Below the pieces are notes generated by a model, which made no database searches, had not been told where the DNA came from, and saw only the letters and a list, made by a program, of their open reading frames with translations. From positions 62,001-126,000 of IMG/VR virus record IMGVR_UViG_3300045923_000041: a stretch of DNA of 64,000 nt; one strand, 5' to 3'. Every line of letters begins with the position of its first letter. Position 1 is the stretch's first letter. This document shows, piece after piece, positions 6,023 to 58,900 of this stretch. The DNA comes from an uncultured virus (IMG/VR IMGVR_UViG_3300045923_000041). Lineage: Duplodnaviria; Heunggongvirae; Uroviricota; Caudoviricetes. Position numbers and translations under genes: made by a program.

Positions 6023-6035
6023 CCCATAAAAGGAC
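6023..6035 (-). promoter_or_regulatory. Putative phage late-promoter motif (GTCCTTTTATGGG)
   Basis: Copy of the YTCYYYTTAT motif in a short intergenic gap upstream of a gene start. Confidence 0.55.
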
Positions 6036-37517: not shown

Positions 37518-38483
37518 TCAGACCTTCGCCGAAGCGAAGAGCCCGTGGATGTACTGAGCTTGCTTGGCGAGAGCCGTCAGGTCCTTGGCGACCCAGGGCT
37601 GCGCGAGATCGACGTTGTTGACGATCTCGGTCACGCGCGACGCGATGGCATAGAGGTCTTCCTTCGCCTTGGACGCGTTGAACTTGCGACCTGCCGTCAC
37701 GAGGGCATCGACCTTGACGCTCGTCTCCTCGACCGTGTTGATGATCGAGTCGGCGAGGCCGGTGTTCTGCTTGAGGCTTTCGAGCGAAGGCTGAGCCGCG
37801 GGTGCCGCAGCAGCCGGGGCGACCTCAGCGGCCGTCTTCGGGGCGTAGACCGGGGTGGTCGAGGGCTCCGGAGCGTAGACCGACTTGGTCGAAGGGCTGG
37901 CCGTCTCCACCTTCACGCCCTGCGCACTTCCGTGCGTGGCGCTCGCGGGGAGCTTCTGGCCTGCGTCTGCCGTGTCCACGACAGGCTTCGAGTCGATGTA
38001 CCACGCGTCGTTCTTGCTCTGGTCACCCGGGTCGTAGAAGTGCAGCCCGCCGACCAGTGAACGAAGCTCACTGTGCAGCTTCGGAGCGATCAGTTGTCCT
38101 GAGGCGTGCTTGTCGAGCAGGGTAACAACCCCCTCGATCTTCCCGAGCCTCTCCAGGAGCGTCTTTGCGTCAGCCATGGCTGGTCCTTCCCTCGTCGAGG
38201 TTCGATCTGAGCGCGGGATAAGAGAACTAGTGAAGTCCCCAGCGGTACCCCACCTGGATACATGGGGCTTCAAAAGCTCTCCCATAGCGTCCAGGTCCAC
38301 CGTAACTACGGCCGAACCGCCTTGGTTGAAGGCGTCGAGCACCTTACGTGCGAACCGCAAGGGGGTCAGCTCTGTCACGAACTTCAGCATCGAGACTGGG
38401 CCCAGCATCATCCGCTGGCCACCCGGCAGGGTCACGAAGTCTCGCAGACCATCCGTTCCGATGGTGACAATCGCCTTCCGCAT
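37518..38483 (-). CDS. Hypothetical protein with probable internal in-frame start at 38177 (MADAKTLL...)
   Basis: Open frame. The ATG at 38483 is abutted by a hairpin; the internal ATG at 38177 has a GAGGGAAGGA SD and a promoter motif upstream. Confidence 0.65.
   Translation of the reverse strand: MRKAIVTIGTDGLRDFVTLPGGQRMMLGPVSMLKFVTELTPLRFARKVLDAFNQGGSAVVTVDLDAMGELLKPHVSRWGTAGDFTSSLIPRSDRTSTREGPAMADAKTLLERLGKIEGVVTLLDKHASGQLIAPKLHSELRSLVGGLHFYDPGDQSKNDAWYIDSKPVVDTADAGQKLPASATHGSAQGVKVETASPSTKSVYAPEPSTTPVYAPKTAAEVAPAAAAPAAQPSLESLKQNTGLADSIINTVEETSVKVDALVTAGRKFNASKAKEDLYAIASRVTEIVNNVDLAQPWVAKDLTALAKQAQYIHGLFASAKV
38215..38227 (-). promoter_or_regulatory. Putative late-promoter motif inside a CDS (GTTCTCTTATCCC)
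   Basis: Matches the recurring motif; about 40 nt upstream of the internal ATG at 38177. Confidence 0.5.
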
Positions 38484-46400: not shown

Positions 46401-47942
46401 CGTGACGAGACGCTGAAGTCCGTCCACCGCCGTCACCGTGACCGGGCCACGGTTGACTGCATCACGGAACGAGCGACCCACGTAGACCTGAACGAGGTCC
46501 GGGCGGTTCGTCACGAGGTCTTGGCGCGCGTTCGTGACCGAGTTGAAGAGCGGCAGGCCAAGGGGCGTGTCGCGGCCGTTGCCGGTCGTCGGGATTTCCG
46601 GCAGCGTGAACTGGTTGGTCGAAACCGTCGCCGGGATCGTCGTGGTGTTCACAACGCGCGTGCACGGGGCCAGCCAGAGCTTGTCGTCCACGAGAAGGGC
46701 GCTGACGAGCGTGTTGTCGAACGGCTGCGCACCAGTCGAGGTCGAACCTGCTGCGATGACGAAGCTCGTCCCCCAGAGGATGACCGAGACCGACTTCGAA
46801 GGGTTGGAGACGATGAAGTCCACACCCTGCACGTAGTCGTTGCGGCCTGGCGAGATGCCGCACGCGACCACGTTGGTCACGAGGGAGTTCGGCAGGTAGT
46901 CGAACGTGTTCTGCCAGGTGTTGGCCGAGTATTGAACCGTGACCGTGGTCCCCGCTGCCGGAGCGTAGGGGAGCGTCACGACACCGTTCGTACCGTCGAG
47001 GCTCGTCGGGATGACCTGGACGTTGTTGACGAGAACGACCACCTTCGAGGTGTCCGTCGTCGTCACGCCGCCGCCCGTGCCGTCCGTGACCGGGATGTTG
47101 AAGACCCGGAACGCCTGGTTGCGGACCGTCTTCGCACCGGCCGAGAAGCCGAGGATGCCGTTGGCCGTGCCCGAACCGATGATGAGGTTCTGGGTCGTCG
47201 TGAACTGCACGTGGTTCAGACCCGCGTTGTCGGTGAAGACCGACGCCACGAGGTTGGTCACCGCGGCTGCGTTGATCGCAGAAGCGAAACCCGCCGCCGT
47301 GTAGCTCTGTGCCCCGAGCGAGATCGTCGAGGTGACGCCGTTGACCGAGACAGCGAACTGGTCGCTCTGGCCACCGACCACCACGTACGGCTCGAACGCC
47401 GGCGCAACGAGGGTTGCGAGGCTGTTGCTCACCTGGGCCGAGACGTCGTCCTTGAAGGACGTGTCGCCACGGTGGAAGTAGTAGGTGACGTTGACCTGGT
47501 CGGTCGGCTGCGTCGGCACCTGGAGGGTGATGAGACCCTGCGAACCGTTGACCGCTGCGAGAGCAACCGGCGTCCCGTTGACCGTAACGGTCACAGCGCT
47601 CGTGTTGTTCGAGACCGTCCCGGTCCCTTGACCGTTGGTGATCGGGAAGTTCGCCACCTTGAAGGTGACAAGGGTTCCCGTCTGGAGGCCGAGGATGAGG
47701 TTCTGGGGGTTCGTCGCGTTGACGACCCACTCCTCAGTGACGTCCTCGTTGACGATCTGTTCGTCGGCCGAGCCGGACGAACCGCGCACGATCTCGACGT
47801 TGTCGTTCTCCAGCACTTGCTGGCCGACCCCGATAATGACAGGGATCCTTAGACCCGCCGTCAGGTTCGAGACGTTGGCTTCAGTCAGCGTCCGCGTGTA
47901 AACGCCGGGCGGGACGTAGGAAATGAACGGGCCGAGTGCCAT
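43443..47942 (-). CDS. Tail sheath protein, giant multidomain form (1499 aa)
   Basis: N-terminal YVPPGVYTRT..IPVIIGVG; C-terminal PDILVPL...HCEVESN..ERMGFIG...IRAALTT...VTQISDFV...YYQPIFPLLYLVLTF. Confidence 0.92.
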   Translation of the reverse strand: MALGPFISYVPPGVYTRTLTEANVSNLTAGLRIPVIIGVGQQVLENDNVEIVRGSSGSADEQIVNEDVTEEWVVNATNPQNLILGLQTGTLVTFKVANFPITNGQGTGTVSNNTSAVTVTVNGTPVALAAVNGSQGLITLQVPTQPTDQVNVTYYFHRGDTSFKDDVSAQVSNSLATLVAPAFEPYVVVGGQSDQFAVSVNGVTSTISLGAQSYTAAGFASAINAAAVTNLVASVFTDNAGLNHVQFTTTQNLIIGSGTANGILGFSAGAKTVRNQAFRVFNIPVTDGTGGGVTTTDTSKVVVLVNNVQVIPTSLDGTNGVVTLPYAPAAGTTVTVQYSANTWQNTFDYLPNSLVTNVVACGISPGRNDYVQGVDFIVSNPSKSVSVILWGTSFVIAAGSTSTGAQPFDNTLVSALLVDDKLWLAPCTRVVNTTTIPATVSTNQFTLPEIPTTGNGRDTPLGLPLFNSVTNARQDLVTNRPDLVQVYVGRSFRDAVNRGPVTVTAVDGLQRLVTLANPVPPDFQAWATFWYNRITDDTFILTCTTPGAYGAGTYQILDSNQNQNAWQIRFGTTSGLSQQVIWPRGVQSIPDAFMTGAGTPVPETVTVTFGTAAANNASFTNRNAEPYSIFTPSSATWVTEVNGSNVTTNLAAAERGVVVGGHVTPVQSGGDSGFIQIPAAPNNVLNLTIDGTALSVTLPTGALTGTFDVTASATVTTSTSQVGLVFPGNVITFASQAGTYYVVQAVTSGNITLTTAYTGTTNPSTTAVFGSAAGGYYSPAAIVASINEVIDLNAAFSGTAPNNLANFSQIGPSTGDVLFYIYSYSVPGALPGGFDSPSAVEINQGTVTSTLGFQTFSTGKGTTGAINKPATLLSSIAGPYNITLGVNDQLIISVNGNQYTITIPNGTSVATSAIVTAINTTPGLSGVASVGTLANSGKLRLTSPTNNANSSIIIGTGTANTPLGFTQNASASQVQVFAYEIVDELMATSGFKSAAIAYVDQINSLNYITFESLTVGAAGSSIGFVTSSNSAFNTSTNIGLVPGTDGDDGENPIDNFVVTSSNSSGSSGTGYPGQTYVDAKTGLRFTVLPSAIGSYGGSGSFTLLVSQTFNVTSAIPTYAIPGLETTVSNTVGVGTNDTGTITTFNPSGTAPAVGDFYFVSYQYMKQDFTVRLFQQQATINANFGVVAPQNRVSLAAYLAILNGAVLVGISQVLAVPNTNQASDASFITAIQNLATPLPGNVKPDILVPLATSTAVYAYLTQHCEVESNIRNQSERMGFIGFASGTSPTNAQTVVRSLLSNRIVAFYPDSSDITLTDETGASYDSIVDGTFYAAAVAGAGCSPAVDVATPYDRRRLQGFTSIPRVLDPVTANQTAVAGITVLEELQPLIRIRAALTTNMSTILTRLPTVTQISDFVQQQSRVILDSFVGTKYLLSRTNEVTVSMTALLKGLIEAQIIGAYTGVSAVVDPNDPTTLDFSAYYQPIFPLLYLVLTFNLRASL

Positions 47943-48103
47943 CCGAGTGTCTCCTCAGCAGAGTGGAGAGAGGTGCTGCGTTCTCATCCGCATCTGGGTG
48001 CGATCTGCCGGAAATCGACAGTGCTTTCGCTTATCTGATTCGGATTCGGATCTCGCCCGTAGGTCGGCGCTGACGTTCTACGCTGGATAGAGTTACAAGA
48101 GAA
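47943..48103 (-). promoter_or_regulatory. Sheath leader: promoter-like motif, RRAYS array, small hairpins and SD
   Basis: GTTCTCTTGT at the distal end; AGATC-C-GAATC-C-GAATC-AGATA; GC-GAAA-GC; CTGTCG/CGGCAG stem; AGATG-C-GGATG-AGAAC; GAGGAG. Confidence 0.5.
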
Positions 48104-48550
48104 CTAGCGATGCTCGCCGCCGGGTCCCCTCTGTGCCCTGACCGAGTCGATGGCGACCTTGGCGAGATTGCGCCTCGCTGTACGTCCGCCGTCGCTCATA
48201 GGCTCATAATCAATGTAATCGCGGTTGTTGTGGCGGATCAGGGCATGGGTTCCACCCTGTTTACGGGCTTCGGCCTTGACCTTCTCCCGTTCGTGGATCT
48301 CCGCCCAGCGGACTTCCGCATCCCGCCCGACAAGCTTGTCCGCCGTAGGATAGTCGTTGTCGTGGACGCCCGTGTTCGCCGTAGCGCCCGTCTGGGAGCC
48401 CTTGAAGGCGAAAGCCAGTGAGTCCGCGTCCCACACTCGCGGTGCATCGCGCCCGCACGAGGGGCACTCGTGCGTCAGGTGCTCTGCCATCTTGAGGGTG
48501 CGGAGGAACTCGACGTTGCAGTCCTCGCACGCGAACGTGTACATGGGCAT
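48104..48550 (-). CDS. FmdB-family zinc-ribbon protein
   Basis: MPMYTFACEDC...ECPSCG..APRV. Confidence 0.85.
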   Translation of the reverse strand: MPMYTFACEDCNVEFLRTLKMAEHLTHECPSCGRDAPRVWDADSLAFAFKGSQTGATANTGVHDNDYPTADKLVGRDAEVRWAEIHEREKVKAEARKQGGTHALIRHNNRDYIDYEPMSDGGRTARRNLAKVAIDSVRAQRGPGGEHR

Positions 48551-48566
48551 GGGATCCTCATTTGGG

Positions 48567-49760
48567 TCAGCGGATGCGCTCGAAGTCGTTGTTGCGCCCG
48601 TTGAAGATGGGCAAGGAGGGGTAGATCAGGGGGCTTGCGCCGCTGGCGAGGGGGGCGACCTGGTCTGACGGCGTATTGGGGTCGGCCGGCTGACCGGCTG
48701 CGTTTGTCTGCCTGACACGACTGATCGTGAAGGGCATCGGCGCGTGCACTTCCCAGTCCGCGCGCAACTGGAGCGACAACGAGGCCGAGTACATGTAGAT
48801 GTCGCCCGTCTCATCCATGGGCTCTTCGCTCTCACCGCCCATGGAGAGGTCCACGATCTCGATGCCCTCGTTCTCCAGGTACGGCTTCTTGTCCGCCCAG
48901 AGGTACATCATCGCGAGGTCGGAGATCTCTTCCATCTGGATCGGGTCTTGAGCCACGGCTTCCAGTTCGAAGCTGACCTCCCACTTGCCACCGTACGCCC
49001 GCGCCACATCCACACGGTCCGGGTAGACCACGACCGCGCACTTGTCCCCAACGCGGGCACGCTTGCCGAACGCCATGACCACACCGGGCAGTGTCTTGAA
49101 GTCCGAGACGTTCCAAAAGAACGGGATCGGACCAAGGGACGGGACCGAGTAGCGGTACTCCGCCATGACCCTCGCCCCGGGCTTGAAGCGGGTCTTGAAG
49201 ACAATCGCTCCGGTCGAGTAGTTGACAACGTAGTCAGTACCCTCCGTGAGCAGCCAGTTGCCGTTCTCGTAGATCCGGAGCGTGCCCTTCGAAGGAGGGT
49301 TCTGAAGCTGACCCTCAGTCTCGATGCCGGTCTGAAAGAAGAGCAGAGGTTCTTGGGGGACCGTGATGAGGGGGTCAATCGTGTACATGCCAGGCTCGGA
49401 GGCGTTCTTGGGCACGGACAAGATCTCGATGTAGTAGACCCCAGGCAGGATCGGCATCTGCTCTTGGTTGTTCGCGAGGACAGCCTGATCCTCGCGAACC
49501 CACTCGATAGGATGCGCGGGCGTACCAAAGTAGAAGAGACCCACGTGGCTCTCGACCGTCCCCATGAAGTTGTCGCCAGCTAGGGAGATCTTGTTGGCAC
49601 TCGATCCCTTGACGATGATCCCGTACTGCGGACGCTCGTTGAAGCTGTACTTGTTCTGGATGTACGGAACGATCTTGCTGTAGATGGGGTGGCGCGAGAA
49701 CGAGTCTTTCAACTCGTTGATGATGCGCCGCTTGAGAGCCCCAATGATGTAGTAGTACAC
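48567..49760 (-). CDS. Tail terminator/completion protein (gp15-like) with inserted domain
   Basis: Upstream of the sheath; ERPQYGIIVK...GGKWEVSFELEAVAQD...YSASLSLQLRADW; inserted LTEGTDYVVNYSTGAIVF module. Confidence 0.6.
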   Translation of the reverse strand: MYYYIIGALKRRIINELKDSFSRHPIYSKIVPYIQNKYSFNERPQYGIIVKGSSANKISLAGDNFMGTVESHVGLFYFGTPAHPIEWVREDQAVLANNQEQMPILPGVYYIEILSVPKNASEPGMYTIDPLITVPQEPLLFFQTGIETEGQLQNPPSKGTLRIYENGNWLLTEGTDYVVNYSTGAIVFKTRFKPGARVMAEYRYSVPSLGPIPFFWNVSDFKTLPGVVMAFGKRARVGDKCAVVVYPDRVDVARAYGGKWEVSFELEAVAQDPIQMEEISDLAMMYLWADKKPYLENEGIEIVDLSMGGESEEPMDETGDIYMYSASLSLQLRADWEVHAPMPFTISRVRQTNAAGQPADPNTPSDQVAPLASGASPLIYPSLPIFNGRNNDFERIR

Positions 49761-49767
49761 GTGGGCC

Positions 49768-50781
49768 TCAGGCGTGTTCCTCCATCGCCAGGACCAGGAG
49801 GCCCTCTGCGACAGCGGTCATGGGGTCCTTCGCCATCCGGATCTCGCTGATCTCGATGGGGAAGCCCTTCTTCTTGATCTCGGAGAACTCCGACTTGAAG
49901 ACCTCCTCGAAACCGATGGCCTTGCACGTGCCGCCGGAAACGACGAACGGGATCGGCCCTGGCAGCTCAATGCTCGACTGCGCCTTGCGGAACTGGATGG
50001 CGATGTTCTCCAGGCAATGGCGGATGAGCGCGCGGATGTAGAGAGAGATCGCTTCGGCGTCCCGATCATCATCCTTGTGGTTGATGAGGTCCACGCCCTT
50101 CTCCTTGATGGTGCACATGCGCGAGGCCGTAGACCCGGTCGCCTTGGCTGCGTGGGAGTCGATCCAGTCGCCGCCACGTGCAAGAGAAAACTCCAGACCC
50201 TTGATGGTCTGATAGGAGAGCGCCACGTTGCACATGCCCGAACCGAATGACACGGACAGGCCCGAGAATGTCTCGTCGGCGCACTGGCTGTAGATGATCG
50301 CCATCGCCTCGTTCATCGGGTGCGCCGTGAACCCGTGCTCGGTGATGATCTTGCGGAAGATCTCCGTGTGGTAGACGACGTCCTGGTCCGGCATGTCCAC
50401 GGGCGCCGCGGGGACGCTGTAGAAGCAGTGCTCGTCCTTGCAAGACGGCTCTTCGAGTACACTCTTGACGAGGAGACTCAGGATCTGCTGCGCCTTGAGT
50501 TCCCCGGCCGCGATGACGCCGTTGCTCAGGGGACGACGCACTTCCCTCTTGAAGAGGTTGGCCATCGTCAGAGCTGAATCGCCGATGACGACGAGCTGGC
50601 CGTCGCCCATCTCGATGTAATCGACCTTCGAGAGCCGGAGCTGCTTCTTGGCCTCCGATTCGAGGTCGATGAATGCGTCGCGGATGCGGTTGGTCGAGAC
50701 CTTGTCGCCGACCTGGCGTGCCGAGACGATGTTCATGGTCCCAATGTCGAGACCAATGCCCTTCCTCTTGTCCGTGCTCAT
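49768..50781 (-). CDS. Actin-like ATPase (volactin/MreB/MamK superfamily)
   Basis: Phosphate-1 GLDIGTMN, RRPLSNG, connect-1 NEAMAIIY, phosphate-2 SFGSGMCNV, RGGDWID, adenosine VVSGGT, connect-2 DPMTAVAEG; 337 aa. Confidence 0.92.
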   Translation of the reverse strand: MSTDKRKGIGLDIGTMNIVSARQVGDKVSTNRIRDAFIDLESEAKKQLRLSKVDYIEMGDGQLVVIGDSALTMANLFKREVRRPLSNGVIAAGELKAQQILSLLVKSVLEEPSCKDEHCFYSVPAAPVDMPDQDVVYHTEIFRKIITEHGFTAHPMNEAMAIIYSQCADETFSGLSVSFGSGMCNVALSYQTIKGLEFSLARGGDWIDSHAAKATGSTASRMCTIKEKGVDLINHKDDDRDAEAISLYIRALIRHCLENIAIQFRKAQSSIELPGPIPFVVSGGTCKAIGFEEVFKSEFSEIKKKGFPIEISEIRMAKDPMTAVAEGLLVLAMEEHA

Positions 50782-50800
50782 CTGGGTCCTCTTTCATCTG

Positions 50801-50819
50801 ACCGGGCAACGTGCCCGGT
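50801..50819. repeat. Perfect 8-bp inverted repeat upstream of the actin-gene SD
   Basis: ACCGGGCA-acg-TGCCCGGT; no U-tract follows. Confidence 0.7.
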
Positions 50820-50824
50820 GAACT

Positions 50825-51604
50825 TCATTTGATCTTCCAGTCGGAAGCAGTCTTCACGCTCTTCGAAGCAACCCGGCCGCCCGCACGCTGCTTGAGCAGG
50901 TACACGAACGACTCGTTCACGTCAGCGATGCCCTGGAGAAGGTTGTCAATGCCGTGCGAGAGCATCCCCTTCTTTTCCAACAGCTCGTAGCCGATACGCA
51001 GAAGCACGAGGAACCGGAGCACACCCTTGAGCGAGATGAGAACGCACTGCTCGGGCGCGGCCTGCATAGGGGCGGCGTTGTACAGATCCTTGACGATGAG
51101 GAGCTGGTGCGTGCTCTGGATGACCGGGTTCACGAGCACGGGAGTGCCGGCGCCCACTGCGCGCTCTCCAAGGCTGTCGATGAGCGGCTGCGTCTCGTTG
51201 TAGAGGCGTTCGAAGAGCAGGTGATCGGCGTAGAAGGCCGTGCCCTGCGTCTGCCAGTGATGCGTCTGGTGGATGAAGGAGAGCGCGCGAAGGTAGGTGA
51301 GCAGTGCCGCAAGCTCCGCCATCGACTGCTCGCCGTAGTCGAGCAAGAAGTGCGCGAGCACGTTGGCCACGTCCTCGTTCGCGGCTTCTTTGGCCACCAT
51401 CGCGCGGACCTCGGCCAGAGAGTCCTTGTCGGGAATCGACGAGGCACCCTTCGGACGACCCACTGCCTTCGAACACGAGGCATCCGGAAGATAGGGGGGA
51501 CCCATCTTCAGGTGGTCGTATGTCGTGGGGTCGTGCCAGACTGCGTAGATCGAGTCGGCGTGTTCCCCAGAGTACGGGTCGATGACGGCGCGTTTGCCGC
51601 TCAC
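50825..51604 (-). CDS. Dps/ferritin-like protein with N-terminal extension
   Basis: HWQTQGTAFYADHLLFERLYNETQPLIDSLGER gives H, H+12, D+27, E+31, the spacing of the Dps ferroxidase centre. Confidence 0.85.
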   Translation of the reverse strand: MSGKRAVIDPYSGEHADSIYAVWHDPTTYDHLKMGPPYLPDASCSKAVGRPKGASSIPDKDSLAEVRAMVAKEAANEDVANVLAHFLLDYGEQSMAELAALLTYLRALSFIHQTHHWQTQGTAFYADHLLFERLYNETQPLIDSLGERAVGAGTPVLVNPVIQSTHQLLIVKDLYNAAPMQAAPEQCVLISLKGVLRFLVLLRIGYELLEKKGMLSHGIDNLLQGIADVNESFVYLLKQRAGGRVASKSVKTASDWKIK

Positions 51605-51609
51605 AGCGC

Positions 51610-52125
51610 TCAGCCCTTCTTCTTGTGGATGCCGTGCGTGAATTCGAGGCTGCCCATACCGCCCGCCGAGGTGGACTTGATGCGGTGCTCCAGCTCATAG
51701 GGGCCCATGCCCTCCTCGTTGAGCTTCTTGGCGTCCTTGGGGTCGTAGCCGTGGGCTTCGAGGATGGCCTCAAGCTCCTTGAGTTCCCCAGGATGCGCTG
51801 CGCCTTCCGCCTGCCAGTCGGCCTTCTTGCGCTTGTTTTGTGTCTTGCCGCCAGGCCCAGCACCCCCGGGGAGCGCCGCCTTGGCCTCCTCACGCAGGTC
51901 TTGACCGACACCCGAGGGCGTCTCGCGCTCCGGCTTGGCGGTGAACGTCTTGCCCGTGTACGGAGAGCGGACGGTCAGCTTCTTCTCCTTGAGCCAGAAC
52001 TCGTTGCCCGTGGGATCCACGTACTTCCAAAGCATGCCGCCCTGGCCCTGCTTCTTGTCACCCTTGGCGAGCTTCTCGGTAAGCTCACTGGCCTGCTTCT
52101 TGAGCTGCTCTTGGATGGGGTGCAT
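51610..52125 (-). CDS. Hypothetical Lys-rich protein (171 aa)
   Basis: ORF with AAGGA SD and an upstream promoter motif. Confidence 0.7.
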   Translation of the reverse strand: MHPIQEQLKKQASELTEKLAKGDKKQGQGGMLWKYVDPTGNEFWLKEKKLTVRSPYTGKTFTAKPERETPSGVGQDLREEAKAALPGGAGPGGKTQNKRKKADWQAEGAAHPGELKELEAILEAHGYDPKDAKKLNEEGMGPYELEHRIKSTSAGGMGSLEFTHGIHKKKG

Positions 52126-52149
52126 GGTCTTCCTTCTGTAACGGCCGAG

Positions 52150-52162
52150 GGGATAAGAGGAA
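52150..52162 (-). promoter_or_regulatory. Putative late-promoter motif (TTCCTCTTATCCC)
   Basis: Recurring motif in an intergenic gap. Confidence 0.55.
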
Positions 52163-52164
52163 GT

Positions 52165-52770
52165 TCAGGGCTTGGCCTTGCGCCGAAGCTCCCGAAGCTT
52201 GTCCGAAGCGCCCGAAAGGGTGCTATCCGACTCGGTTTTCTTGGCCTCGATGCGACTCTCGGTGTTTTCGGGCCTGATCGTCGCTGGGATGAACGTCGGA
52301 GTGTTGTCCTCGGGCACCGCCGCACGCACCAGCGGGCCGCCGTTGCCCTGGACCTGGACGATGGTCGTCGTCGAGGGACCCTGCGTGCGAAGAAGCTCCA
52401 AGATCGTGTCCAGCTTGACCGTGGCCCGCTGTTCAGCCGCCAGAGCGTCCTGGCGTTGCTTCTCAAGAGCTTCCCGCAGACGCTTGTTCTCTTCTTCGAG
52501 GGCCTGCTGGCGAGCCGCAAGCGAAGGGTCCGGAGCCGCTGCAACGGGCTCGGTTGAGCCCGGGGGGATGATGACGTTTCGCTGGACGTAGGGACCCGAC
52601 TGGATGAGGCAGATGTACTTCTGCCCGATAGCCCGCCAGAGATCCTTGGACTTGTTCGCTTTGTCCGCCGGGATCGTGACCGTATGGCCGTGGGGAACAC
52701 CCACCCCCAAGTCCGTGATGAAGTGGATCCCGGCGACGAGGCCGAAGACGGTGACATCGCTCACGGCCAT
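52165..52770 (-). CDS. Coiled-coil protein with short basic amphipathic C-terminal helix
   Basis: LAARQQALEEENKRLREALEKQ; ends TLSGASDKLRELRRKAKP. Confidence 0.7.
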   Translation of the reverse strand: MAVSDVTVFGLVAGIHFITDLGVGVPHGHTVTIPADKANKSKDLWRAIGQKYICLIQSGPYVQRNVIIPPGSTEPVAAAPDPSLAARQQALEEENKRLREALEKQRQDALAAEQRATVKLDTILELLRTQGPSTTTIVQVQGNGGPLVRAAVPEDNTPTFIPATIRPENTESRIEAKKTESDSTLSGASDKLRELRRKAKP

Positions 52771-52771
52771 G

Positions 52772-53281
52772 TCAACGACCCTTCTTGTTGTGGAGGGTCT
52801 GTCGGAGCTGGAGCATCACCTCACGGGTCATGCGCTCCTTGATGAACTTCTTGGCCTCTTGCTTGGCCTTCGTGATGAAGTCCACACGACCGCGGCCGGG
52901 GTGCCACCAGCTCCCGTTCTCCATCGAACGAGGCGTCGCCCAGCGGAAGATCATCTCGCCCGAGTCGAGGACGATGGGGATCGGGACCTTCGCCTTCGTG
53001 AGCCACTTCATCTGCCTCTTCTCCTGTCCGAAGACGAGAGGCTTGAAACCGGGGTGACTGGTCGTGATGACGAGGCTGTTCGGGAAGATCTTGATCCGGA
53101 GCGACTTCGACAGCGACTTGCGGGCGCGGTCCGAAAAGGTGGGAATGTTCTGGAACTTGGCCTTGAGGCGCCGGTTCAGCTCGGCCTTGAGCTTGCGCAG
53201 CACCCCTTCTGGGTTGACGTTGAGGTTCTCGCCGATGAGGGGTTTGGCGTAGACACCGCTGACACGCGTGGGGGCGCCCAT
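52772..53281 (-). CDS. Neck/tail-completion protein (HK97 gp10-like position)
   Basis: Basic protein with SLSKSLRI and WWHPG..DFI; TGATG overlap supports a start at 53281. Confidence 0.55.
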   Translation of the reverse strand: MGAPTRVSGVYAKPLIGENLNVNPEGVLRKLKAELNRRLKAKFQNIPTFSDRARKSLSKSLRIKIFPNSLVITTSHPGFKPLVFGQEKRQMKWLTKAKVPIPIVLDSGEMIFRWATPRSMENGSWWHPGRGRVDFITKAKQEAKKFIKERMTREVMLQLRQTLHNKKGR

Positions 53282-54645
53282 CAGTATTCCGTGTTCTCCC
53301 AAGCGTCGGTCTCTCCACGGAGCTGGCGCTCTGCGGGGATGTTGGGCTTGTTCGTGATCTCCGAGCTGGCTTCCTGGTCAGGGCCCATCGGAGCGAACTC
53401 GACGGCCGGGAACCTGACAGGATTGTCCACGGGCACCTTGTTGCGGATGTCCTTCTCGTCGAAGTGACCCACCGTGAAGTGCTGTTGCAGGATCATGCCT
53501 CGGCTTGTAGGCATCCGAACGGCGCCGATCGAGTATCGTTCACCGTTGATCTTCACGAAGAAGTCACGGTGTGCAAGGAGCGGCGTCGGTCCCGTCCAGG
53601 ACTCGTACGTGTGCTCGACCGTGCGACCGCGATCCTTCTGTGTGATGCGCTTCTCAGAGTCATCCGGCGCGATGATGATGTCGTACGGTCCGTCGTAGCC
53701 GCCGATGATCCCCGTACCGAAGCAGAGGGGATCGTCATTGATTGGTTGCTTGTGGATGTCGTCCTGGAAACAAGGGCACGGCGTGCCCACCTGCTTGCGC
53801 AAGAAGACCTTCACGCGCTCGCCCGCCTGCTCAAGCAGCCAGCGGTTTCGGCGTGCGGCCTCCTTCCAGATGTAGTCGATCTTCTCCATCTCGTAGGAGT
53901 TCGTGGCCGTCGCGTACTCCAGCGGCGTCTCCATGACCTTCTGGGACTGGACAACGCTCGTGGCGTGGTTGACGGGGATGCCCACGGTCGTGACGAGATA
54001 GAAGACCCTCTGAACGAGGTCCGTGCGCACGAGCTGCTTCGTGTACCTGTACGAGCAGGTCACGACGCTCGTTGAAGAAGGGACCACCGTGGGCAAGTAG
54101 TTCTGCGTGCCCGTGTCGGGGTAGCGCCGGACGTCGATCTCGATCTCGCCCGTCTGACCATCGACACGCAGGACCGGAACGATCTGGCCATCGACGATGA
54201 CCTGCACGTCCTCGGCAGAGTTGGCGTAGACCTCCTGCGAGGCTTCCTTGACGATGGGCCGAAGCAGCGTGCGGAAGACGTAACGAGGACCATAGCCGGC
54301 CATGCCCGTGCTCTGCTCGCCGAAGATGACCCACTGTTGAGGGGTGATCTGCTCGTCGGTAACGAGGACGTTGTTGGTCTGATCGCGCCAGTAGCGAGAC
54401 CCGATGGGCAGGCTGTTCACGCGCTCGAACGGTCCGAACTCCGAGTCGAACGCACGGTAGATGTTGACCCCCAAGATGGAGAACCGACCGTTGAGGGTCA
54501 GGATCCCGGGGCTGTCCCACGTGAGGTCGAACACACCAGGCCGGTACCCACTCCTCACGAAGAAGTTGAGGGGTGAGACCGGCCACGGAGCCCGGACGTA
54601 CTCCAGCTCACTGGGGTTCCGGTCGCGATTACTTGCATAAGGCAT
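53281..54645 (-). CDS. Head-closure/neck protein with FN3-like N-terminus
   Basis: GERVKVFLRK..GTPCPC...LCFGTGIIGGY motif of large-myovirus neck proteins. Confidence 0.65.
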   Translation of the reverse strand: MPYASNRDRNPSELEYVRAPWPVSPLNFFVRSGYRPGVFDLTWDSPGILTLNGRFSILGVNIYRAFDSEFGPFERVNSLPIGSRYWRDQTNNVLVTDEQITPQQWVIFGEQSTGMAGYGPRYVFRTLLRPIVKEASQEVYANSAEDVQVIVDGQIVPVLRVDGQTGEIEIDVRRYPDTGTQNYLPTVVPSSTSVVTCSYRYTKQLVRTDLVQRVFYLVTTVGIPVNHATSVVQSQKVMETPLEYATATNSYEMEKIDYIWKEAARRNRWLLEQAGERVKVFLRKQVGTPCPCFQDDIHKQPINDDPLCFGTGIIGGYDGPYDIIIAPDDSEKRITQKDRGRTVEHTYESWTGPTPLLAHRDFFVKINGERYSIGAVRMPTSRGMILQQHFTVGHFDEKDIRNKVPVDNPVRFPAVEFAPMGPDQEASSEITNKPNIPAERQLRGETDAWENTEY

Positions 54646-54666
54646 GGAGGCTCCCCCAGATCAGCC

Positions 54667-54679
54667 CCCATAAAGGGAA
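54667..54679 (-). promoter_or_regulatory. Putative late-promoter motif (TTCCCTTTATGGG)
   Basis: Recurring motif in an intergenic gap. Confidence 0.55.
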
Positions 54680-54682
54680 GAA

Positions 54683-54979
54683 TCACTGCGGTGCTTGCGC
54701 ACCTTCACCCTGGGCGTTGACGAAGCTGATCTGCCCTGTCTTGGCGTCCACCTCGACAGGTGTACCCGGGTTGAGCCCACGGTCGGTCAACTCCTTGGCG
54801 AAGAGACGCTGCTTCTCCTCGTCGAGCTGCCTGGCCGAGACGAGGATCTTGATCTTCTCGTGCTCCAAGTCGAGGAGCTGGTCGCCAAGCTGAGACCTGG
54901 CAGCCGAGACCTGTGCCATTCTTTTCAGCACATCTGGCGAGATCGGGTCGTTCGGGGTCAGCTTCTTCTCGGTGCTCAT
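54683..54979 (-). CDS. Small coiled-coil protein (98 aa)
   Basis: GGAGG spacing favours the MSTEKK start at 54979. Confidence 0.7.
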   Translation of the reverse strand: MSTEKKLTPNDPISPDVLKRMAQVSAARSQLGDQLLDLEHEKIKILVSARQLDEEKQRLFAKELTDRGLNPGTPVEVDAKTGQISFVNAQGEGAQAPQ

Positions 54980-55029
54980 CTTCATCCTCCGGTGGCGCAC
55001 AAACGCGCGCCCGTCCTACAGGAGGGGAT

Positions 55030-55042
55030 GGCATAAGAGGAC
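55030..55042 (-). promoter_or_regulatory. Putative late-promoter motif (GTCCTCTTATGCC)
   Basis: Recurring motif in an intergenic gap. Confidence 0.55.
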
Positions 55043-55055
55043 TAGACAGCTTGGG

Positions 55056-55973
55056 TCAGAAGCCGACGAACTTGCGAGGAGAGAGCACACCTCGGCCGGC
55101 GTACGGACCGAATGCCGAACGGATGCCGGTACCAAACTTGGGCTGCTGGACGCCCTTGATGTAGTTGACGGTCGCCTTGCCCTTTTCGAGCTGCGTCTGG
55201 AAGTGCTCACTGGCGGCTTGCTGAGCGCCTTCGTACTTGGCGGCCTTCTCCAGGTTGAGCGAGACACCGCCGATGCTGTAGTCGAACTCGTCGGCGATCC
55301 AGTTGATGCGCATGGCCTGGAGCGCGTAGTACGTCGCGCCCGTCAAGAGCATCGTCCTCCACTCGGGATGGAGCTGCACCATCTGAGCGATGTTGGCGAA
55401 GGGAGTCTTGGGGGGCGCCGCGATGATGTCGTCGAGCGCGTTGTACATGTACTCGACCAGCTCGTGGTCCTCCCAGATGAAGCCGAAGACCTTGCTGAAC
55501 TGCGTAACCGTCTCTTCGTGGGCCGGCGGACGGAAGTGGTAGTTGCGGTCGGGGTTGTTGTCGCGGAGCAGGTTGCGCAAGCGGCGCATGAGTTCCCGCT
55601 CGTGGTGGTCCATCTCGCCACCCTCACCCCCACCGGGGCCGAACCCACCCGGTTGGACCCGGTCGATGACCGCGAAGTTCATGACGACCTGTTGCAGCGG
55701 CCCTCCGACGACCTCACGGAAGGTCCAGCGGATGCGGTAGGCACCGATGTTGGCGTCAAGCGGGATGAGCAGGCTCGCGTAGTATTCCCCGACAGACGGG
55801 TTCACGGGCACACGCATGCTCGGACCGACGAGGACTTCGCTGCCGGTCGTGAAGTCGTAGAGGGCGTAGCTGATCTCGGCGGCGTTGACGGGCGTGCCGT
55901 TGACGTTCGTCAGGTAGATGTTGAGGTCGTTCCTGCCGAGGAGCTGACCCTTGTAGAATGCGGTGGTTGCCAT
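55056..55973 (-). CDS. Head-tail adaptor with N-terminal Ig-like domain
   Basis: C-terminal LRNLLRD...WEDHELVEY..ALDDI...FDYSIGGVSLNLEKAAKY fits the adaptor pattern; precedes the closure gene. Confidence 0.6.
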   Translation of the reverse strand: MATTAFYKGQLLGRNDLNIYLTNVNGTPVNAAEISYALYDFTTGSEVLVGPSMRVPVNPSVGEYYASLLIPLDANIGAYRIRWTFREVVGGPLQQVVMNFAVIDRVQPGGFGPGGGEGGEMDHHERELMRRLRNLLRDNNPDRNYHFRPPAHEETVTQFSKVFGFIWEDHELVEYMYNALDDIIAAPPKTPFANIAQMVQLHPEWRTMLLTGATYYALQAMRINWIADEFDYSIGGVSLNLEKAAKYEGAQQAASEHFQTQLEKGKATVNYIKGVQQPKFGTGIRSAFGPYAGRGVLSPRKFVGF

Positions 55974-55976
55974 GCT

Positions 55977-58900
55977 TCAGTCCCATCCGCGCTTGCGGCC
56001 TCGTGGCGTCTTGTCGTCGGGGAAGTGCGCCGAGACGGCGTCGAGCACCTCGAAGTAGTAGTCCTTCGTGAAGGACTGGCTAAAGAAGGTTTCTTGAACG
56101 GTCCAGCGGACCATCCAGATGCCCGGCTGGCCACCTTCGCCAACGACACCCGTGACGTAGAAGTGTCCCACACCGGGGCCGTGCGCCGGCTCGCGAGCGT
56201 CGGGCCCGACCGGCATGAGGAACATGTCCTTCACCTGGTAGAGGGCGAACGTGACCTTGTAGGGTTCGACCGGGTGACGGCGCTTGTCGTCGTCCTTCTC
56301 GTAGACGTAGAGCGGCAGATGGTGCGGCTCGAAGAACGTGGCCCAGTACGGGAACGCGACGAGCCGCGAGGTCGTGCGAGTCCTGAGGATGGGCGGCAGA
56401 ACCGGGGCTTGGTAGTTGTAGCCCGCGATGATCGCGCTGATCGGCGGTAGCGAGACGTACTGCGCCGGCGGCTGGACGTAGATGAAGGCGTTCTGCGAGG
56501 GAACACCGTAGCCCGCGAAGATCGAATCTTGGGGCGGGAGGTCTGCAACCGGGGGGAGAGCCGCAGGAATGATCTGCGCGTTCTGTGGTGGGAACCCGAA
56601 GCCCGCGAAGAGGTACTGCGGGGGCGGGAGGTCCGGAACGAGCGGGGCCGGGATCGTCGGGATGATCTGCGGTGCTTGCGCCGCCTGGCCGTAGCCGACC
56701 ACCAGCTCCGGGATCACAGTGGGGTACGGAGCGCGAGCGTCGTACGCCTGGAAGAGCTGTGCGACCTGTGCAGGGAAGCCGAACCCAGGGATGACGTACT
56801 GAGGCGGCGGAAGATCCGGTACGAGCGGGGGCGGTACCGCAGGGATGATCTGAGCAACCTGTGCTGCCTGCCCGTAGCCTGCCAGCACGTAGTCCGTAGG
56901 CGGCAAGAGCGCAGCGGGGGCGGGCACGCCGATGTAGATGGCGGGGTTCTGCGCGGCCTGTCCGAAGCCTGCGAAGAGGCTGTCGAGCGGGGGCAGAGGG
57001 ACGTAGTCTGCGGGGGCTGCCTTCGAGATGAAGGGCGCCTGAGCGGCCTGCCCGTAGCCCGCGAACAGGTAGTCCGTGGGCGGGAGCTGCACGTAGGGGG
57101 ACGGCGGGGGCAGCGAGAAGACCACTGCGGACTGCGCGGCCGTTCCAGCACCACCCGTGAGAGCACCACCGGACGTCGCATAGAAGGCCGGCGGCGGATC
57201 ACCCGAGCTGAGGAGCAGCGGCGGCGGGATGAGGTAGTACGCGTGCGGGGCGACGGGCGGAGCGATGATGATCTGCGCGTTCTGCGCGGCCTGACCGTAG
57301 CCCTTGAGGACGTAGTCCTGAGGGGGGAGCTGAGCACTCGGCGGGAGAACGAAAGGTTGGAACAGCTCGGGGCTCTGCGCTGCCTGGCCGTGTCCTGCGA
57401 AGACTGCGTCCTCCGGAGGGAGCTGGGTGAACGGTGGCACGAGTGGCTGCGTGTAGACCACGGCCTTCTGAGGCGGGAACCCGAAGCCAGCGAAGATGGA
57501 GTCCAGCGGAGGCAGTGCAGCGCTCGGCGGGAGAACGAACGGCTGGTAGAGAGCGGCGTTCTGAGCCGGACGTCCAAAGCCCGCGTAGATGCTCTGTGGG
57601 GGCGGCAGCACCTCGGTTGGAGGCAGCACGAACGGCTGGACGAGGGTCGGTGCCTGCGCCGCCTGACCGAAGCCCTTGAGGATGTAGTCGGTCGGAGGCA
57701 GTGCAGCGAACGGCGGGACGAGCGGCTGCGTGTAGATTGCCGGGTTCTGTGGCGGGTAGCCGAAGCCCGCGAAGATCGAGTCCTCGGGCGGCAGGACAGC
57801 CGAGGGCGGCAGCAACGTGGGCTGCACGAAGAACGGCGCTTCGGCGGGCTTGCCGTACCCCGCATAGATGTAGTCCTGCGGCGGGAGTACCTCGGTCGGA
57901 GGCAGGATCGTCGCCTGAACATGGAAGGGTGCTTCCGCGGCCTGGCCGTACCCGGCGAACACGTAGTCCTGCGGAGGCAGATTGGCGCTTGGGGGAAGCA
58001 ACGTGGGCTGCACGAAAAAGGGCACTTCGGCGGCCTGCCCGTAGCCTGCAAAGATCGAATCCAGCGGGGGAAGAGCAGCCGAGGGCGGAAGAACGAACGG
58101 CTGGAACAGCGCTGCGACCTGTGCAGGCTTGCCGTAACCGGCGTAGATGCTCTGCGGCGGAGGCAGGGCAGCCGAGGGCGGTAGGACGAACGGCTGTACG
58201 AAGAACGGTGCCTGAGCAGCCTGACCATACCCAGCGTAGACGTAGTCTTGCGGAGGCAGGTTCGCAGCGGGCGGCGGAACCCCAATGATCTGGACCGCCA
58301 CTTGTGCAGGCTTGCCGAAGCCTGCGAAGATCGAATCCTCGGGCGGCAGGGCCACGTACGGGGGCTGCGGTTGCAAAGTGAAGGGGATGTTCGAGAGGCT
58401 GGGGGTTCCGTAGCCCGCGAAGATCGAGTCCTCCGGGGGCAAGATCGCGCTGGGGGCCGGGAAGAGCGAAGGGTAGAAGACCTCGGCGATCTGCGCAGCT
58501 TGACCGTAGCCGGTGACCACGTAGTCCTGCGGAGGCAGCGTCGCGCTCGGAGCAACGAGCGGTTGGGAGATGGTGAACGCGTTGAGCGAAGGCTTGCCGT
58601 ACCCTGCAACGAGGAAGGTGGGAGGGGGCAGGAGTGCAGACGGCGGCAGGACAAACGGCTGGAAGAGCGCTGCGTTCTGTGCCGGTTGACCGAACCCGGC
58701 GAAGATGCTTTGGGGTGGGGGCAGATCCGGAACCCTGGGCGGCGGGATCGCAGGGAGGATCTGTGCGACTTGAGCCGGCTGACCATACCCAATGAAGATC
58801 GAGTCCTCCGGGGGCAGAACCGCGAAGGGTGGGATCTGCGCCGGAACAACGGACGGGGCTTGTGTTGCCTGACCGAAGCCCTTGAGGATGTAGTCTTGCG

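What the first reader, a model, noticed from the sequence alone, without database searches (positions are those of the whole stretch)
49768..52770. Candidate actin module: coiled-coil adaptor, Lys-rich protein, Dps and actin
Seen: the 201-aa protein, 1 nt after the neck gene, has a small N-domain, a coiled coil, a disordered linker and a terminal helix (SGASDKLRELRRK). A promoter motif then precedes the 171-aa, Dps and actin genes. Known: ParR/AlfB-type adaptors bind their actin through a short C-terminal helix on a flexible tail. Inference: this protein nucleates filaments or links them to virion parts rather than to DNA.
Basis: inference. Interest (0 to 1): 0.7.

Follow-up and report, generated by a model that had tools for sequence, protein, structure and literature searches.

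The report
Huge-phage actin with docking adaptor
A fragment of a very large uncultured phage encodes its own actin-type filament protein together with a small partner protein whose conserved tail probably hooks onto that actin, so these phages probably build and tether their own filaments.

Summary
The window is part of a 126-kb fragment of a huge phage (CheckV completeness 27%). ORF 49768-50781(-) is a clear volactin-type actin (PF25216, 251 bits).

The adaptor idea is supported by comparison, not by any binding test, because the complex predictor was unavailable.
- The 201-aa family lies upstream of the actin in 71 of 80 related viral loci. The 9 misses are all cut short upstream.
- Both genes are missing from Tunturi_5-like phages that keep the flanking neck and tail genes.
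- The 47-residue tail (P-x-F-I-P ... A-x-x-x-L-R-x-L-R-K) is as conserved as the folded domain.
- The same two-part tail sits on N-terminally unrelated proteins encoded next to distant volactin-type actins (families B and C, and one Omnitrophica contig). It occurs nowhere else among 12,612 ORFs scanned.

The Dps-like and Lys-rich genes are later inserts, not core parts. The adaptor's cargo and its effect on filaments are unknown. I found no paper describing this. This scan has noted the same pair on at least 16 other genomes.

The parts
52165..52770 (-). 201-aa candidate volactin-docking adaptor (family A)
   Evidence: ORF; no Pfam or PHROG family; AF2 model. A profile of the family finds 1222 cluster representatives at E <= 1e-3, nearly all 180-220 aa. 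It is present upstream of the actin in 71 of 80 related loci.
52597..52770 (-). N-terminal small beta/alpha domain (aa 1-58); target unknown
   Evidence: pLDDT 85-98. Mean top-residue frequency is 0.52 over 48 sequences. There are only weak likenesses to small uncharacterised phage proteins (BFVD best E 6.7e-3) and no PDB match at E <= 0.4.
52384..52527 (-). Long helix (aa 82-129), probably a coiled coil
   Evidence: pLDDT >90. Its only structural matches are coiled-coil chains, Z about 5.5.
52177..52317 (-). Conserved two-part tail (aa 152-198): P-x-F-I-P ... R-I ... then the terminal helix A-x-x-x-L-R-x-L-R-K (aa 185-198 = 52177-52218)
   Evidence: Predicted disordered except for helix 185-198, yet as conserved as the folded domain: 0.50 against 0.22-0.25 for the linkers. 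P158 is kept in 96%, P162 in 98%, L192 in 100% and R196 in 88% of sequences. The same tail occurs on unrelated proteins next to distant actins.
49768..50781 (-). Volactin-type actin (337 aa)
   Evidence: PF25216 E 2.5e-74. 125 relatives were found in viral contigs at 51-100% identity, many on contigs of 200-512 kb. 55 columns are invariant over 42 sequences, including D12, G14, T15, G180, G182, G283 and G284.
52126..52164 (-). 39-nt spacer with a Shine-Dalgarno-like GAAGGAAG and the recurring motif at 52150-52159
   Evidence: Sequence. The motif count is and was defined after looking. No sigma-70-like site was found.
51610..52125 (-). 171-aa Lys-rich protein, an accessory insert
   Evidence: 14.6% Lys. 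No family found and no usable Atlas hit. The family is found in 46 of 80 loci with lengths of 68-474 aa, and is absent where the adaptor abuts the actin.
50825..51604 (-). 259-aa Dps-like protein with an N-terminal extension of about 90 aa, an accessory insert
   Evidence: The family is found in 64 of 80 loci and is absent from the divergent loci.
52772..53302 (-). 176-aa neck-like protein, 1 nt upstream of the adaptor gene
   Evidence: Model pLDDT 89. Best match is 9mu2_P of the SaPI1 neck, Z 9.1. The family is found in 69 of 80 loci and usually overlaps the adaptor's start by a few bases.
48567..49760 (-). 397-aa homologue of the annotated tail terminator of Tunturi_5 (context)
   Evidence: phmmer E 1.1e-18 and profile E 7.3e-28 to ORF 13750-15339 of L082, which is annotated 'tail terminator'.
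53281..54645 (-). 454-aa homologue of the 'minor tail protein' gp322 of Tunturi_5 (context)
   Evidence: tblastn 28.8% identity, E 1e-21; annotation. Its profile also hits the sheath ORFs.

Best explanation
The 201-aa protein is the dedicated partner ('adaptor') of the phage's own volactin-type actin.

Shown by sequence and model: it has a folded N-terminal domain, a long helix that probably pairs into a coiled coil, a floppy linker, and a conserved two-part tail that ends in a short basic helix.

Inferred: the tail docks on the actin. This would resemble the C-terminal peptides of ParR and arcadin-2, which bind the hydrophobic groove of their actins. The N-terminal domain would hold a phage-specific cargo or anchor, so that filaments made late in infection are tethered or seeded at that cargo.

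The position between a neck-like gene and the tail-terminator gene makes a virion or assembly component the first candidate for the cargo. That last step is a guess. The Dps-like and Lys-rich genes are later additions to the locus and are not needed for the pair.
For: (1) The architecture is as stated. The tail is as conserved as the folded domain and about twice as conserved as the linkers.

(2) Linkage inside the clade. An iterated profile finds the family upstream of the actin in 71 of 80 viral loci. The 9 misses (L004, L027, L037, L043, L046, L058, L067, L069, L073) each hold at most 2,046 nt upstream of the actin. It is also found in LR745208.1 and in 3 of 3 informative MAG contigs. There is exactly one copy in each of 4 whole records and in the window's own 126-kb record.

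(3) In 11 divergent loci the adaptor gene ends 0-102 nt before the actin with nothing between. The pair is therefore the core.

(4) Joint absence. Tunturiibacter phage Tunturi_5 and loci L092 and L093 keep the order minor tail protein - small gene - tail terminator - Zn-ribbon - sheath, but have neither the adaptor nor the actin. The whole 308,711-bp Tunturi_5 genome has no adaptor match. It is also not among the only 2 of 50,697 phage records that match the actin.

(5) The same tail occurs on unrelated N-terminal parts, always beside a volactin-type actin only 35-43% identical to ours or to each other. Family B (7 loci) lies after a ClpP gene. Family C (6 loci, 4 distinct) lies after a NUDIX gene. 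A 141-aa ORF lies downstream of the actin on an Omnitrophica contig. L113 is hit by the family-A profile at 4.6e-11.

(6) Specificity. A pattern written after seeing these tails hits 54 of 12,612 six-frame ORFs in 109 loci. 40 are family-A members, 14 are the actin's neighbour in 14 of 18 distant loci, and none lie elsewhere, including 839 outgroup ORFs.

(7) Non-circular ranking. A profile built from family-C tails alone puts family-A ORFs in 30 of its next 39 ranks, although these make up only 79 of the 12,612 ORFs. A profile built from family-B tails alone puts them in 14 of its next 38 ranks, and also ranks the Omnitrophica, L114 and family-C neighbours.

(8) Profile-profile alignments are tail to tail with both motifs in register: A/C P 2.5e-4, A/B P 8e-4, B/C P 9e-3.

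(9) On a quick actin tree each adaptor type is one clade: A 97, C 100, B 99.

(10) Precedent. Arcadin-2 and ParR bind their actins through C-terminal peptides in the hydrophobic groove (passages of PMC5173319).
Against: No interaction was computed or measured.

The links between tail families are weak one by one. hhalign probabilities are 4-43%. The best cross-family HMM E-values are only 0.028-0.029. The family-B and family-C tail profiles do not reach the window's own protein at E <= 0.1.

The pattern was designed after seeing the sequences.

The 71 loci belong to one phage clade in which the whole neck-tail block is syntenic, so they amount to roughly one evolutionary event.

Two distant loci (LR756511.1/L083 and L105) have only a 69-76-aa upstream ORF with a likeness to the first motif and no terminal helix. 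L114 has only the terminal helix.

Cellular volactin loci show no tail by pattern or HMM within 1.5 kb.

No fused adaptor-actin protein was found (weak evidence).
Confidence: 0.6

Rival explanations
1. The protein binds the actin through its tail but acts as a regulator, not a tether. It would cap, sequester or depolymerise the actin, as arcadin-2 does with crenactin or thymosin beta-4 with actin.
For: The same comparative evidence for tail-actin linkage applies. Arcadin-2 is also encoded beside its actin, binds by a C-terminal peptide and depolymerises filaments (passages of PMC5173319).
Against: A well-conserved folded N-terminal domain plus a probable dimerising helix is more than a sequestering peptide needs. 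The N-terminal parts differ between lineages while the tail stays, which fits exchangeable cargo domains. Neither point is decisive.
Confidence: 0.15
2. It is a neck or tail assembly factor (chaperone, scaffold or minor virion protein) with no tie to the actin. The tail would serve another partner, for instance a protease, a portal or a packaging signal. The actin would merely share a gene-insertion hot spot.
For: The gene follows a neck-like gene after a 1-nt spacer and sits in the neck-tail block. In Tunturi-like phages the same junction holds multi-kb blocks of unrelated small genes, so it is an insertion hot spot. Family B follows a ClpP protease gene.
Against: Phages with the same structural genes do without it, so it is not a required part of that virion module. 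The tail recurs beside actins in non-structural contexts: NUDIX, ParA-like ATPase and ClpP/cold-shock neighbours. It occurs nowhere else in 12,612 ORFs.
Confidence: 0.15
3. It is a ParR/AlfB/AlpA-type DNA-binding centromere adaptor that couples phage DNA to the filament.
For: The gene order (adaptor upstream of the actin) and the tail architecture resemble type II partition loci. The prophage pair AlpA-AlpC works this way (abstracts of PMC4446434 and PMC5539076, search listing).
Against: No DNA-binding family or fold was recognised in the N-terminal domain. No iteron-like repeat array lies within 47900-55100; only two-copy families of 12-16 nt were found. The gene sits among late virion genes.
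Confidence: 0.05

Closest known systems
Volactin (VolA, HVO_2015) of Haloferax volcanii, Pfam PF25216 (Schiller et al. 2024, PMC10869688; abstract and passages read)
   Same: The window's actin matches the family model end to end (positions 3-321 of 321) at 251 bits. Cellular archaeal volactins fall in the same tree. [quoted passage not shown]
   Different: This one is viral, sits in a neck-tail operon, and is paired with a soluble coiled-coil partner. The cellular genes instead have a DUF7139 neighbour. The paper does not mention phages (0 occurrences of phage, virus or viral).
ParM-ParR and AlfA-AlfB type II plasmid partition systems
   Same: An actin-like ATPase gene lies next to a small adaptor gene. 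ParR binds ParM's hydrophobic groove with its C-terminal part (passage in PMC5173319).
   Different: No ribbon-helix-helix or other DNA-binding domain was recognised. There are no centromere repeats nearby. The actin belongs to another family, and the tail has two motifs spread over about 47 residues.
Crenactin-arcadin-2 of Pyrobaculum (Izore et al. 2016, PMC5173319; passages read)
   Same: The partner is encoded in the same cluster, the only interacting part is a C-terminal peptide, and the rest of the protein is dispensable for binding.
   Different: Arcadin-2 is a depolymeriser and has no known cargo domain. I did not test for sequence or fold relationship to it. The host is an archaeon, not a phage.
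AlpC-AlpA of Corynebacterium prophage CGP3 (PMC4446434, PMC5539076; search listing and abstract starts only)
   Same: A phage-borne actin-like protein with a dedicated adaptor.
   Different: AlpA binds DNA sites (alpS) and serves viral DNA transport and replication. Here there is no sign of DNA binding, and the genes lie among late virion genes of a huge phage. The actin family also differs.
PhuZ tubulin spindle of nucleus-forming jumbo phages (recalled; reviews PMC7950403 and PMC8314001 seen in the search listing only)
   Same: A cytoskeletal polymer encoded by a very large phage.
   Different: PhuZ is a tubulin, not an actin. No Tubulin family match (PF00091) was found in 0 of 4 related records, two of them 100% complete at 407 and 513 kb.

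Membership tests
Volactin (PF25216), for ORF 49768-50781 | Match to the family model above the curated cut-off over its whole length | tested here: met
   251.1 bits against a cut-off of 35; profile positions 3-321 of 321.
Volactin (PF25216), for ORF 49768-50781 | Conserved actin-fold nucleotide-binding residues | tested here: met
   D12, G14, T15, G180, G182, G283 and G284 are invariant in 42 sequences. That these are the phosphate- and adenosine-binding motifs is my reading from general knowledge of the actin fold.
Volactin (PF25216), for ORF 49768-50781 | ATP-dependent, dynamic filament formation | not testable with these tools
   This needs purified protein or imaging.
ParR/AlfB-type actin adaptor, for ORF 52165-52770 | Encoded next to its actin and inherited with it | tested here: met
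   Present in 71 of 80 loci, with all 9 misses cut short upstream. Both genes are absent from Tunturi_5-like phages.
ParR/AlfB-type actin adaptor, for ORF 52165-52770 | Short C-terminal helix on a flexible tail | tested here: met
   Helix 185-198 follows a disordered stretch 130-184. The tail is conserved.
ParR/AlfB-type actin adaptor, for ORF 52165-52770 | The tail binds the actin | not testable with these tools
No natural fusion protein was found that could be folded instead.
ParR/AlfB-type actin adaptor, for ORF 52165-52770 | N-terminal DNA-binding domain (ribbon-helix-helix or similar) | tested here: inconclusive
   No Pfam or PHROG family. No PDB fold match at E <= 0.4. The VIA list is filled by coiled coils.
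ParR/AlfB-type actin adaptor, for ORF 52165-52770 | Centromere-like repeat array near the genes | tested here: not met
   Only two-copy repeats of 12-16 nt lie in 47900-55100.
Dps (ferritin-like), for ORF 50825-51604 | Match to the Ferritin/Dps model above the curated cut-off | tested here: not met
   PF00210 scores 17 bits against 24.5, and DUF5856 scores 22.7 against 34.6. The nearest solved chains are all Dps proteins, E 1e-5 to 1e-3, over residues 100-157 only. It is Dps-like but not a confirmed member.
Dps (ferritin-like), for ORF 50825-51604 | Ferroxidase-centre residues and dodecamer formation | not tested
   I did not align the iron ligands.

The most novel reading that the evidence does not exclude
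Volactin-type actins, in cells and viruses alike, are served by one ancient docking tail carried on exchangeable cargo domains. In clade-A huge phages the tail sits on a neck-linked coiled-coil protein. In another phage group it sits on a ClpP-linked coiled-coil protein, in a third on a NUDIX-linked protein, and in archaea a remnant of the terminal helix sits in the DUF7139 membrane neighbour. Tubulin-less huge phages of 400-500 kb would then run their own actin cytoskeleton late in infection to position or move virion parts. The tail would also be a ready-made handle for finding the unknown volactin-binding factors of Haloferax.
Probability: 0.35. Interest if true: 0.8.

Novelty: new variant of a known kind. 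Interest (0 to 1): 0.65.

Why it matters
Phage-made cytoskeletons are so far known mainly as the PhuZ tubulin spindle. An actin with its own adaptor that is conserved across hundreds of huge-phage contigs, in phages without tubulin, would be a second and independent solution.

The conserved tail turns the question into a direct experiment. A peptide of about 50 residues and a 337-aa actin can be made and tested for binding, nucleation or capping.

If the faint match to the archaeal DUF7139 neighbour holds, the same motif would point to the missing volactin-binding factor in Haloferax volcanii, where genetics and imaging already exist.

Tried and rejected
- Complex prediction (actin alignment A2 with tail residues 140-201 of A3) was answered 'not available'.
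- The search for related loci with the adaptor alignment failed for lack of a conserved stretch. Single adaptor sequences found only near-identical loci: 3 and 2 loci. I therefore anchored on the actin and on the Tunturi_5 minor tail protein instead.
- A search for longer, fused adaptor proteins found none. The tool itself calls this weak evidence.
- Fold searches with the adaptor model gave no PDB match at E <= 0.4. VIA-align returned only coiled coils, Z about 5.5. BFVD returned small uncharacterised phage proteins, best E 6.7e-3. The ESM Atlas gave only unnamed viral clusters at scores up to 0.80.
- The Atlas gave nothing usable for the 171-aa protein.
- Iterating the tail profile at E <= 0.01 did not grow beyond family A plus L101-L104: 79 hits. 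Families A and B are joined only by profile-profile comparison and by rank enrichment.
- The sigma-70 scan found nothing. The 14-nt spacer string is not repeated above chance: 3 matches against 4.9 expected.
- Tail pattern and tail profiles found nothing in cellular volactin loci.
- A centromere-like repeat search was negative.
- The careful tree did not finish in the time allowed, so the tree I cite is the quick one.
Full report
WHAT THE WINDOW IS

The window is bases 62001-126000 of a 126,452-bp IMG/VR virus record that CheckV rates 27% complete. That implies a phage of several hundred kb. A 362,937-bp contig carries identical copies of the genes studied here (L002).

Almost all genes lie on the minus strand. 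Recognisable ones include a Baseplate_J protein and a UvrD-type helicase.

Around the finding, the order in the direction of transcription is:
- a 2614-aa repeat protein;
- a 305-aa protein, homologous to the annotated head-tail connector of Tunturiibacter phage Tunturi_5;
- a 105-aa protein;
- a 454-aa protein, homologous to the Tunturi_5 'minor tail protein';
- a 176-aa protein;
- the 201-aa protein, which is the subject of the finding;
- the 171-aa protein;
- the 259-aa Dps-like protein;
- the 337-aa actin;
- a 397-aa protein, homologous to the Tunturi_5 'tail terminator';
- a 148-aa Zn-ribbon protein;
- a 1499-aa protein, homologous to the Tunturi_5 'tail sheath'.

THE OBSERVATION

All stated coordinates and spacings are right. 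The actin is a full-length member of Pfam Volactin: 251 bits against a cut-off of 35.

- a compact domain, residues 1-58, pLDDT 85-98;
- a helix, residues 82-129, pLDDT >90;
- an unstructured stretch, residues 130-184;
- a terminal helix, residues 185-198.

The long helix matches only coiled-coil chains.

The 171-aa protein is 14.6% lysine.

The 259-aa protein is Dps-like but falls below Pfam's cut-off. Its nearest solved relatives are all Dps proteins, at E about 1e-5 over about 57 residues.

The 176-aa 'neck' gene gives a confident model (pLDDT 89). Its single strong structural match is a chain of the SaPI1 neck: 9mu2_P, Z 9.1, the only chain of 48,161 with Z >= 8. Foldseek found nothing for it.

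No sigma-70-type promoter lies in the region. A short motif that I defined after looking, C[CT][CT]TTAT[GC][GC], occurs five times on the coding strand and never on the other. Four of the five lie in short intergenic gaps, one of them 25 nt ahead of the 171-aa gene.

LINKAGE OF THE ADAPTOR AND THE ACTIN WITHIN THE PHAGE CLADE

The actin has 125 relatives in viral contigs. 80 were fetched, at 51-100% identity, many on contigs of 200-512 kb.

With a single sequence, tblastn finds the 201-aa protein in 60 of 81 loci. An iterated profile finds it in 71 of 80. The nine misses are all loci that end at most 2,046 nt upstream of the actin.

The family evolves fast, at 18-64% identity to the window's copy. 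It is nevertheless large: a profile search of 1.84 billion representatives gives 1222 hits at E <= 1e-3 and 203 at E <= 1e-30, nearly all 180-220 aa and matched end to end.

Four whole related records hold exactly one copy each. The window's own record holds one copy and one actin.

The Lys-rich and Dps-like families are present in only 46 and 64 of the 80 loci. In the divergent branch the adaptor gene ends 0-102 nt before the actin gene with nothing in between. That branch comprises L075-L081, LR745208.1 and three MAG contigs that carry the same phage genes. The conserved unit is therefore neck-like gene - adaptor - actin, and the Dps-like and Lys-rich genes came later.

JOINT ABSENCE IN THE OUTGROUP

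The cultured jumbo phage Tunturi_5 (308,711 bp) and two related contigs keep the order minor tail protein - one small unrelated gene - tail terminator - Zn-ribbon - sheath. They have neither the adaptor nor the actin.

The whole Tunturi_5 genome has no adaptor match. It is also not among the only two phage records of 50,697 that match the actin.

Two further relatives carry multi-kb blocks of small genes at this junction. The site is therefore an insertion hot spot, which by itself could explain mere neighbourhood.

THE TAIL IS THE CONSERVED, PORTABLE PART

Within family A, the 47-residue tail (152-198) is predicted to be mostly disordered. It is nevertheless as conserved as the folded domain: mean top-residue frequency 0.50 against 0.52, with 0.22-0.25 for the linkers and 0.34 for the long helix. 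P158, P162, L192 and R196 are kept in 88-100% of sequences.

I then fetched loci around much more distant actins, at 28-43% identity. In most of them, the gene next to the actin encodes a protein with a different N-terminal part. Its end, however, has the same layout: an aromatic-I/V-P/D turn, then about 20-45 residues including a hydrophobic-x-V/I pair, then a helix A-x-x-x-L-R/K-x-L/F-R/K-K at the very C-terminus.

- Family B: 7 loci, proteins of 253-329 aa, just after a ClpP gene.
- Family C: 6 loci, 4 distinct sequences, proteins of 156-195 aa, after a NUDIX gene, on jumbo viral contigs and two archaeal-MAG contigs.
- Omnitrophica contig: a 141-aa ORF downstream of the actin, followed by a ParA-like ATPase.
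- L113: hit by the family-A profile at 4.6e-11.
- L114: only the terminal helix is present.
- L083 and L105: only a 69-76-aa ORF with a likeness to the first motif.

HOW STRONG IS THAT LIKENESS?

Profile-profile comparisons align tail to tail with both motifs in register, but with modest scores: A/C P 2.5e-4 (probability 43%), A/B P 8e-4 (24%), B/C P 9e-3 (4%).

A pattern that I wrote after seeing the tails hits 54 of 12,612 six-frame ORFs from 109 loci. 40 are family-A members. 14 are the actin's neighbour in 14 of the 18 distant loci. None lie anywhere else, including 839 ORFs of the outgroup loci.

Because that pattern is post hoc, I also ran a ranking test that is not circular. A profile built from the four family-C tails alone places family-A ORFs in 30 of the 39 ranks after its own members. 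Family-A ORFs are only 79 of the 12,612, or 0.6%. A profile built from the seven family-B tails places them in 14 of its next 38 ranks, and also ranks the Omnitrophica, L114 and family-C neighbours.

The individual E-values there are weak (best 0.028 and 0.029), and the family-A rows are related to each other. Even so, the enrichment is far beyond chance.

On a quick actin tree each adaptor type forms one clade. The cellular archaeal volactins form another clade (support 86) among them (the careful search did not finish).

CELLULAR VOLACTINS

In a sample of 201 genomes of one archaeal phylum, 18 have a volactin. Within 1.5 kb of those genes, neither the pattern nor any tail profile finds a hit, apart from the phage-like contig already counted.

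15 of 18 cellular places have a conserved neighbour carrying DUF7139. A 27-column segment near its C-terminus aligns with the terminal-helix motif of family A: hhalign P 3.5e-4, probability 37%.

This is faint.

WHAT IT MOST LIKELY DOES

Shown:
- the architecture;
- conservation of the tail;
- strict co-inheritance with the actin;
- recurrence of the tail on unrelated proteins beside distant actins.

Inferred:
- the tail docks on the actin, as the C-terminal peptides of ParR and arcadin-2 do in the hydrophobic groove of ParM and crenactin (PMC5173319, passages);
- the long helix dimerises;
- the N-terminal domain holds a cargo or anchor.

Guessed: the cargo is a neck or other virion-assembly part. 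This rests on the 1-nt coupling to a neck-like gene and the late-operon position.

Whether the pair nucleates, tethers, caps or dismantles filaments cannot be told from sequence. Related complete genomes of 407 and 513 kb have no tubulin-family match (0 of 4 records). This leaves room for an actin-based counterpart of the PhuZ system.

PRIOR KNOWLEDGE

- The term 'volactin' occurs in 17 papers of the library. None of the 14 listed titles concerns phages. The founding paper does not mention phage or virus.
- Searches combining actin terms with jumbo, huge or mega-phage terms gave no paper on a phage volactin.
- A 2021 comparative overview and a 2026 review of jumbo phages contain no 'actin' apart from 'actino...' words.
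- I did not read supplements.
- Within this scan the same pairing has been noted on at least 16 other genomes. Those are unchecked notes, not independent evidence.

VERDICT

The adaptor reading is the best-supported explanation (about 0.6), but it lacks any binding evidence. 'Nucleator' and 'virion link' remain open. The Dps-like and Lys-rich genes are passengers. This is a new variant of the known actin-plus-tail-adaptor theme, set in the virion-gene block of tubulin-less huge phages.

Noticed in passing
window 55977-63821 (-): A 2614-aa ORF made largely of dozens of Pro-rich repeats of about 30 residues (recurring L-P-P-x-D ... G-Y-G-Q). It has no Pfam or PHROG match. The opposite strand holds long spurious ORFs.
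   Followed up: no
L072:9980-12082: The actin gene of one related phage is 700 aa long because it carries an intein with a LAGLIDADG domain (PF14890, PF14528) inserted after about residue 204.
   Followed up: partly
L098:5965-9331 (Omnitrophica MAG contig): A volactin-type actin is followed by a masked stretch, a 141-aa protein with the docking-tail layout, and a ParA-like ATPase with a CBM48/AMPK glycogen-binding domain. This may be a cellular or plasmid version of the pair.
   Followed up: partly
L106-L112: Another viral group has the order ClpP protease - coiled-coil tail protein (family B) - actin - a small protein that looks like a cold-shock domain. The cold-shock likeness is by eye only and was not tested.
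   Followed up: partly
L115-L132, L135 (cellular archaeal volactin loci): 15 of 18 places have a conserved DUF7139 neighbour, mostly transcribed divergently from the volactin gene. A short segment near its C-terminus faintly matches the adaptor's terminal-helix motif, hhalign P 3.5e-4.
   Followed up: partly
L083:7756-7986 (LR756511.1, 595 kb) and L105:4797-5006: The most distant phage actins (28-35% identity) are preceded by a 69-76-aa ORF. It ends in a W-A-I-P-D/E-F ... K-F-G-K stretch and has no terminal helix. This may be a minimal or different partner.
   Followed up: no
window 53281-54645 and 43443-47942; L082, L084, L092, L093: The profile of the 454-aa 'minor tail protein' family also hits the tail-sheath ORFs at E 3e-25 to 5e-48. 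The two proteins therefore share a domain.
   Followed up: no
L090:10284-19281, L091:10281-17019: In Tunturi-like phages the junction between the minor tail protein and the tail terminator holds 6-9 kb of small genes, many on the opposite strand. The junction is a gene-insertion hot spot.
   Followed up: partly
window 55030-55039, 54667-54676, 52150-52159, 38215-38224, 6023-6032 (-): The motif C[CT][CT]TTAT[GC][GC] occurs only on the coding strand, and four of its five copies lie in short intergenic gaps. It is a candidate phage promoter element, defined after looking.
   Followed up: partly
L002's record (G204, 362,937 bp): IMG/VR classes this near-identical, longer contig as a 'provirus' at 76% completeness. 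That is odd for a huge phage and was not examined.
   Followed up: no
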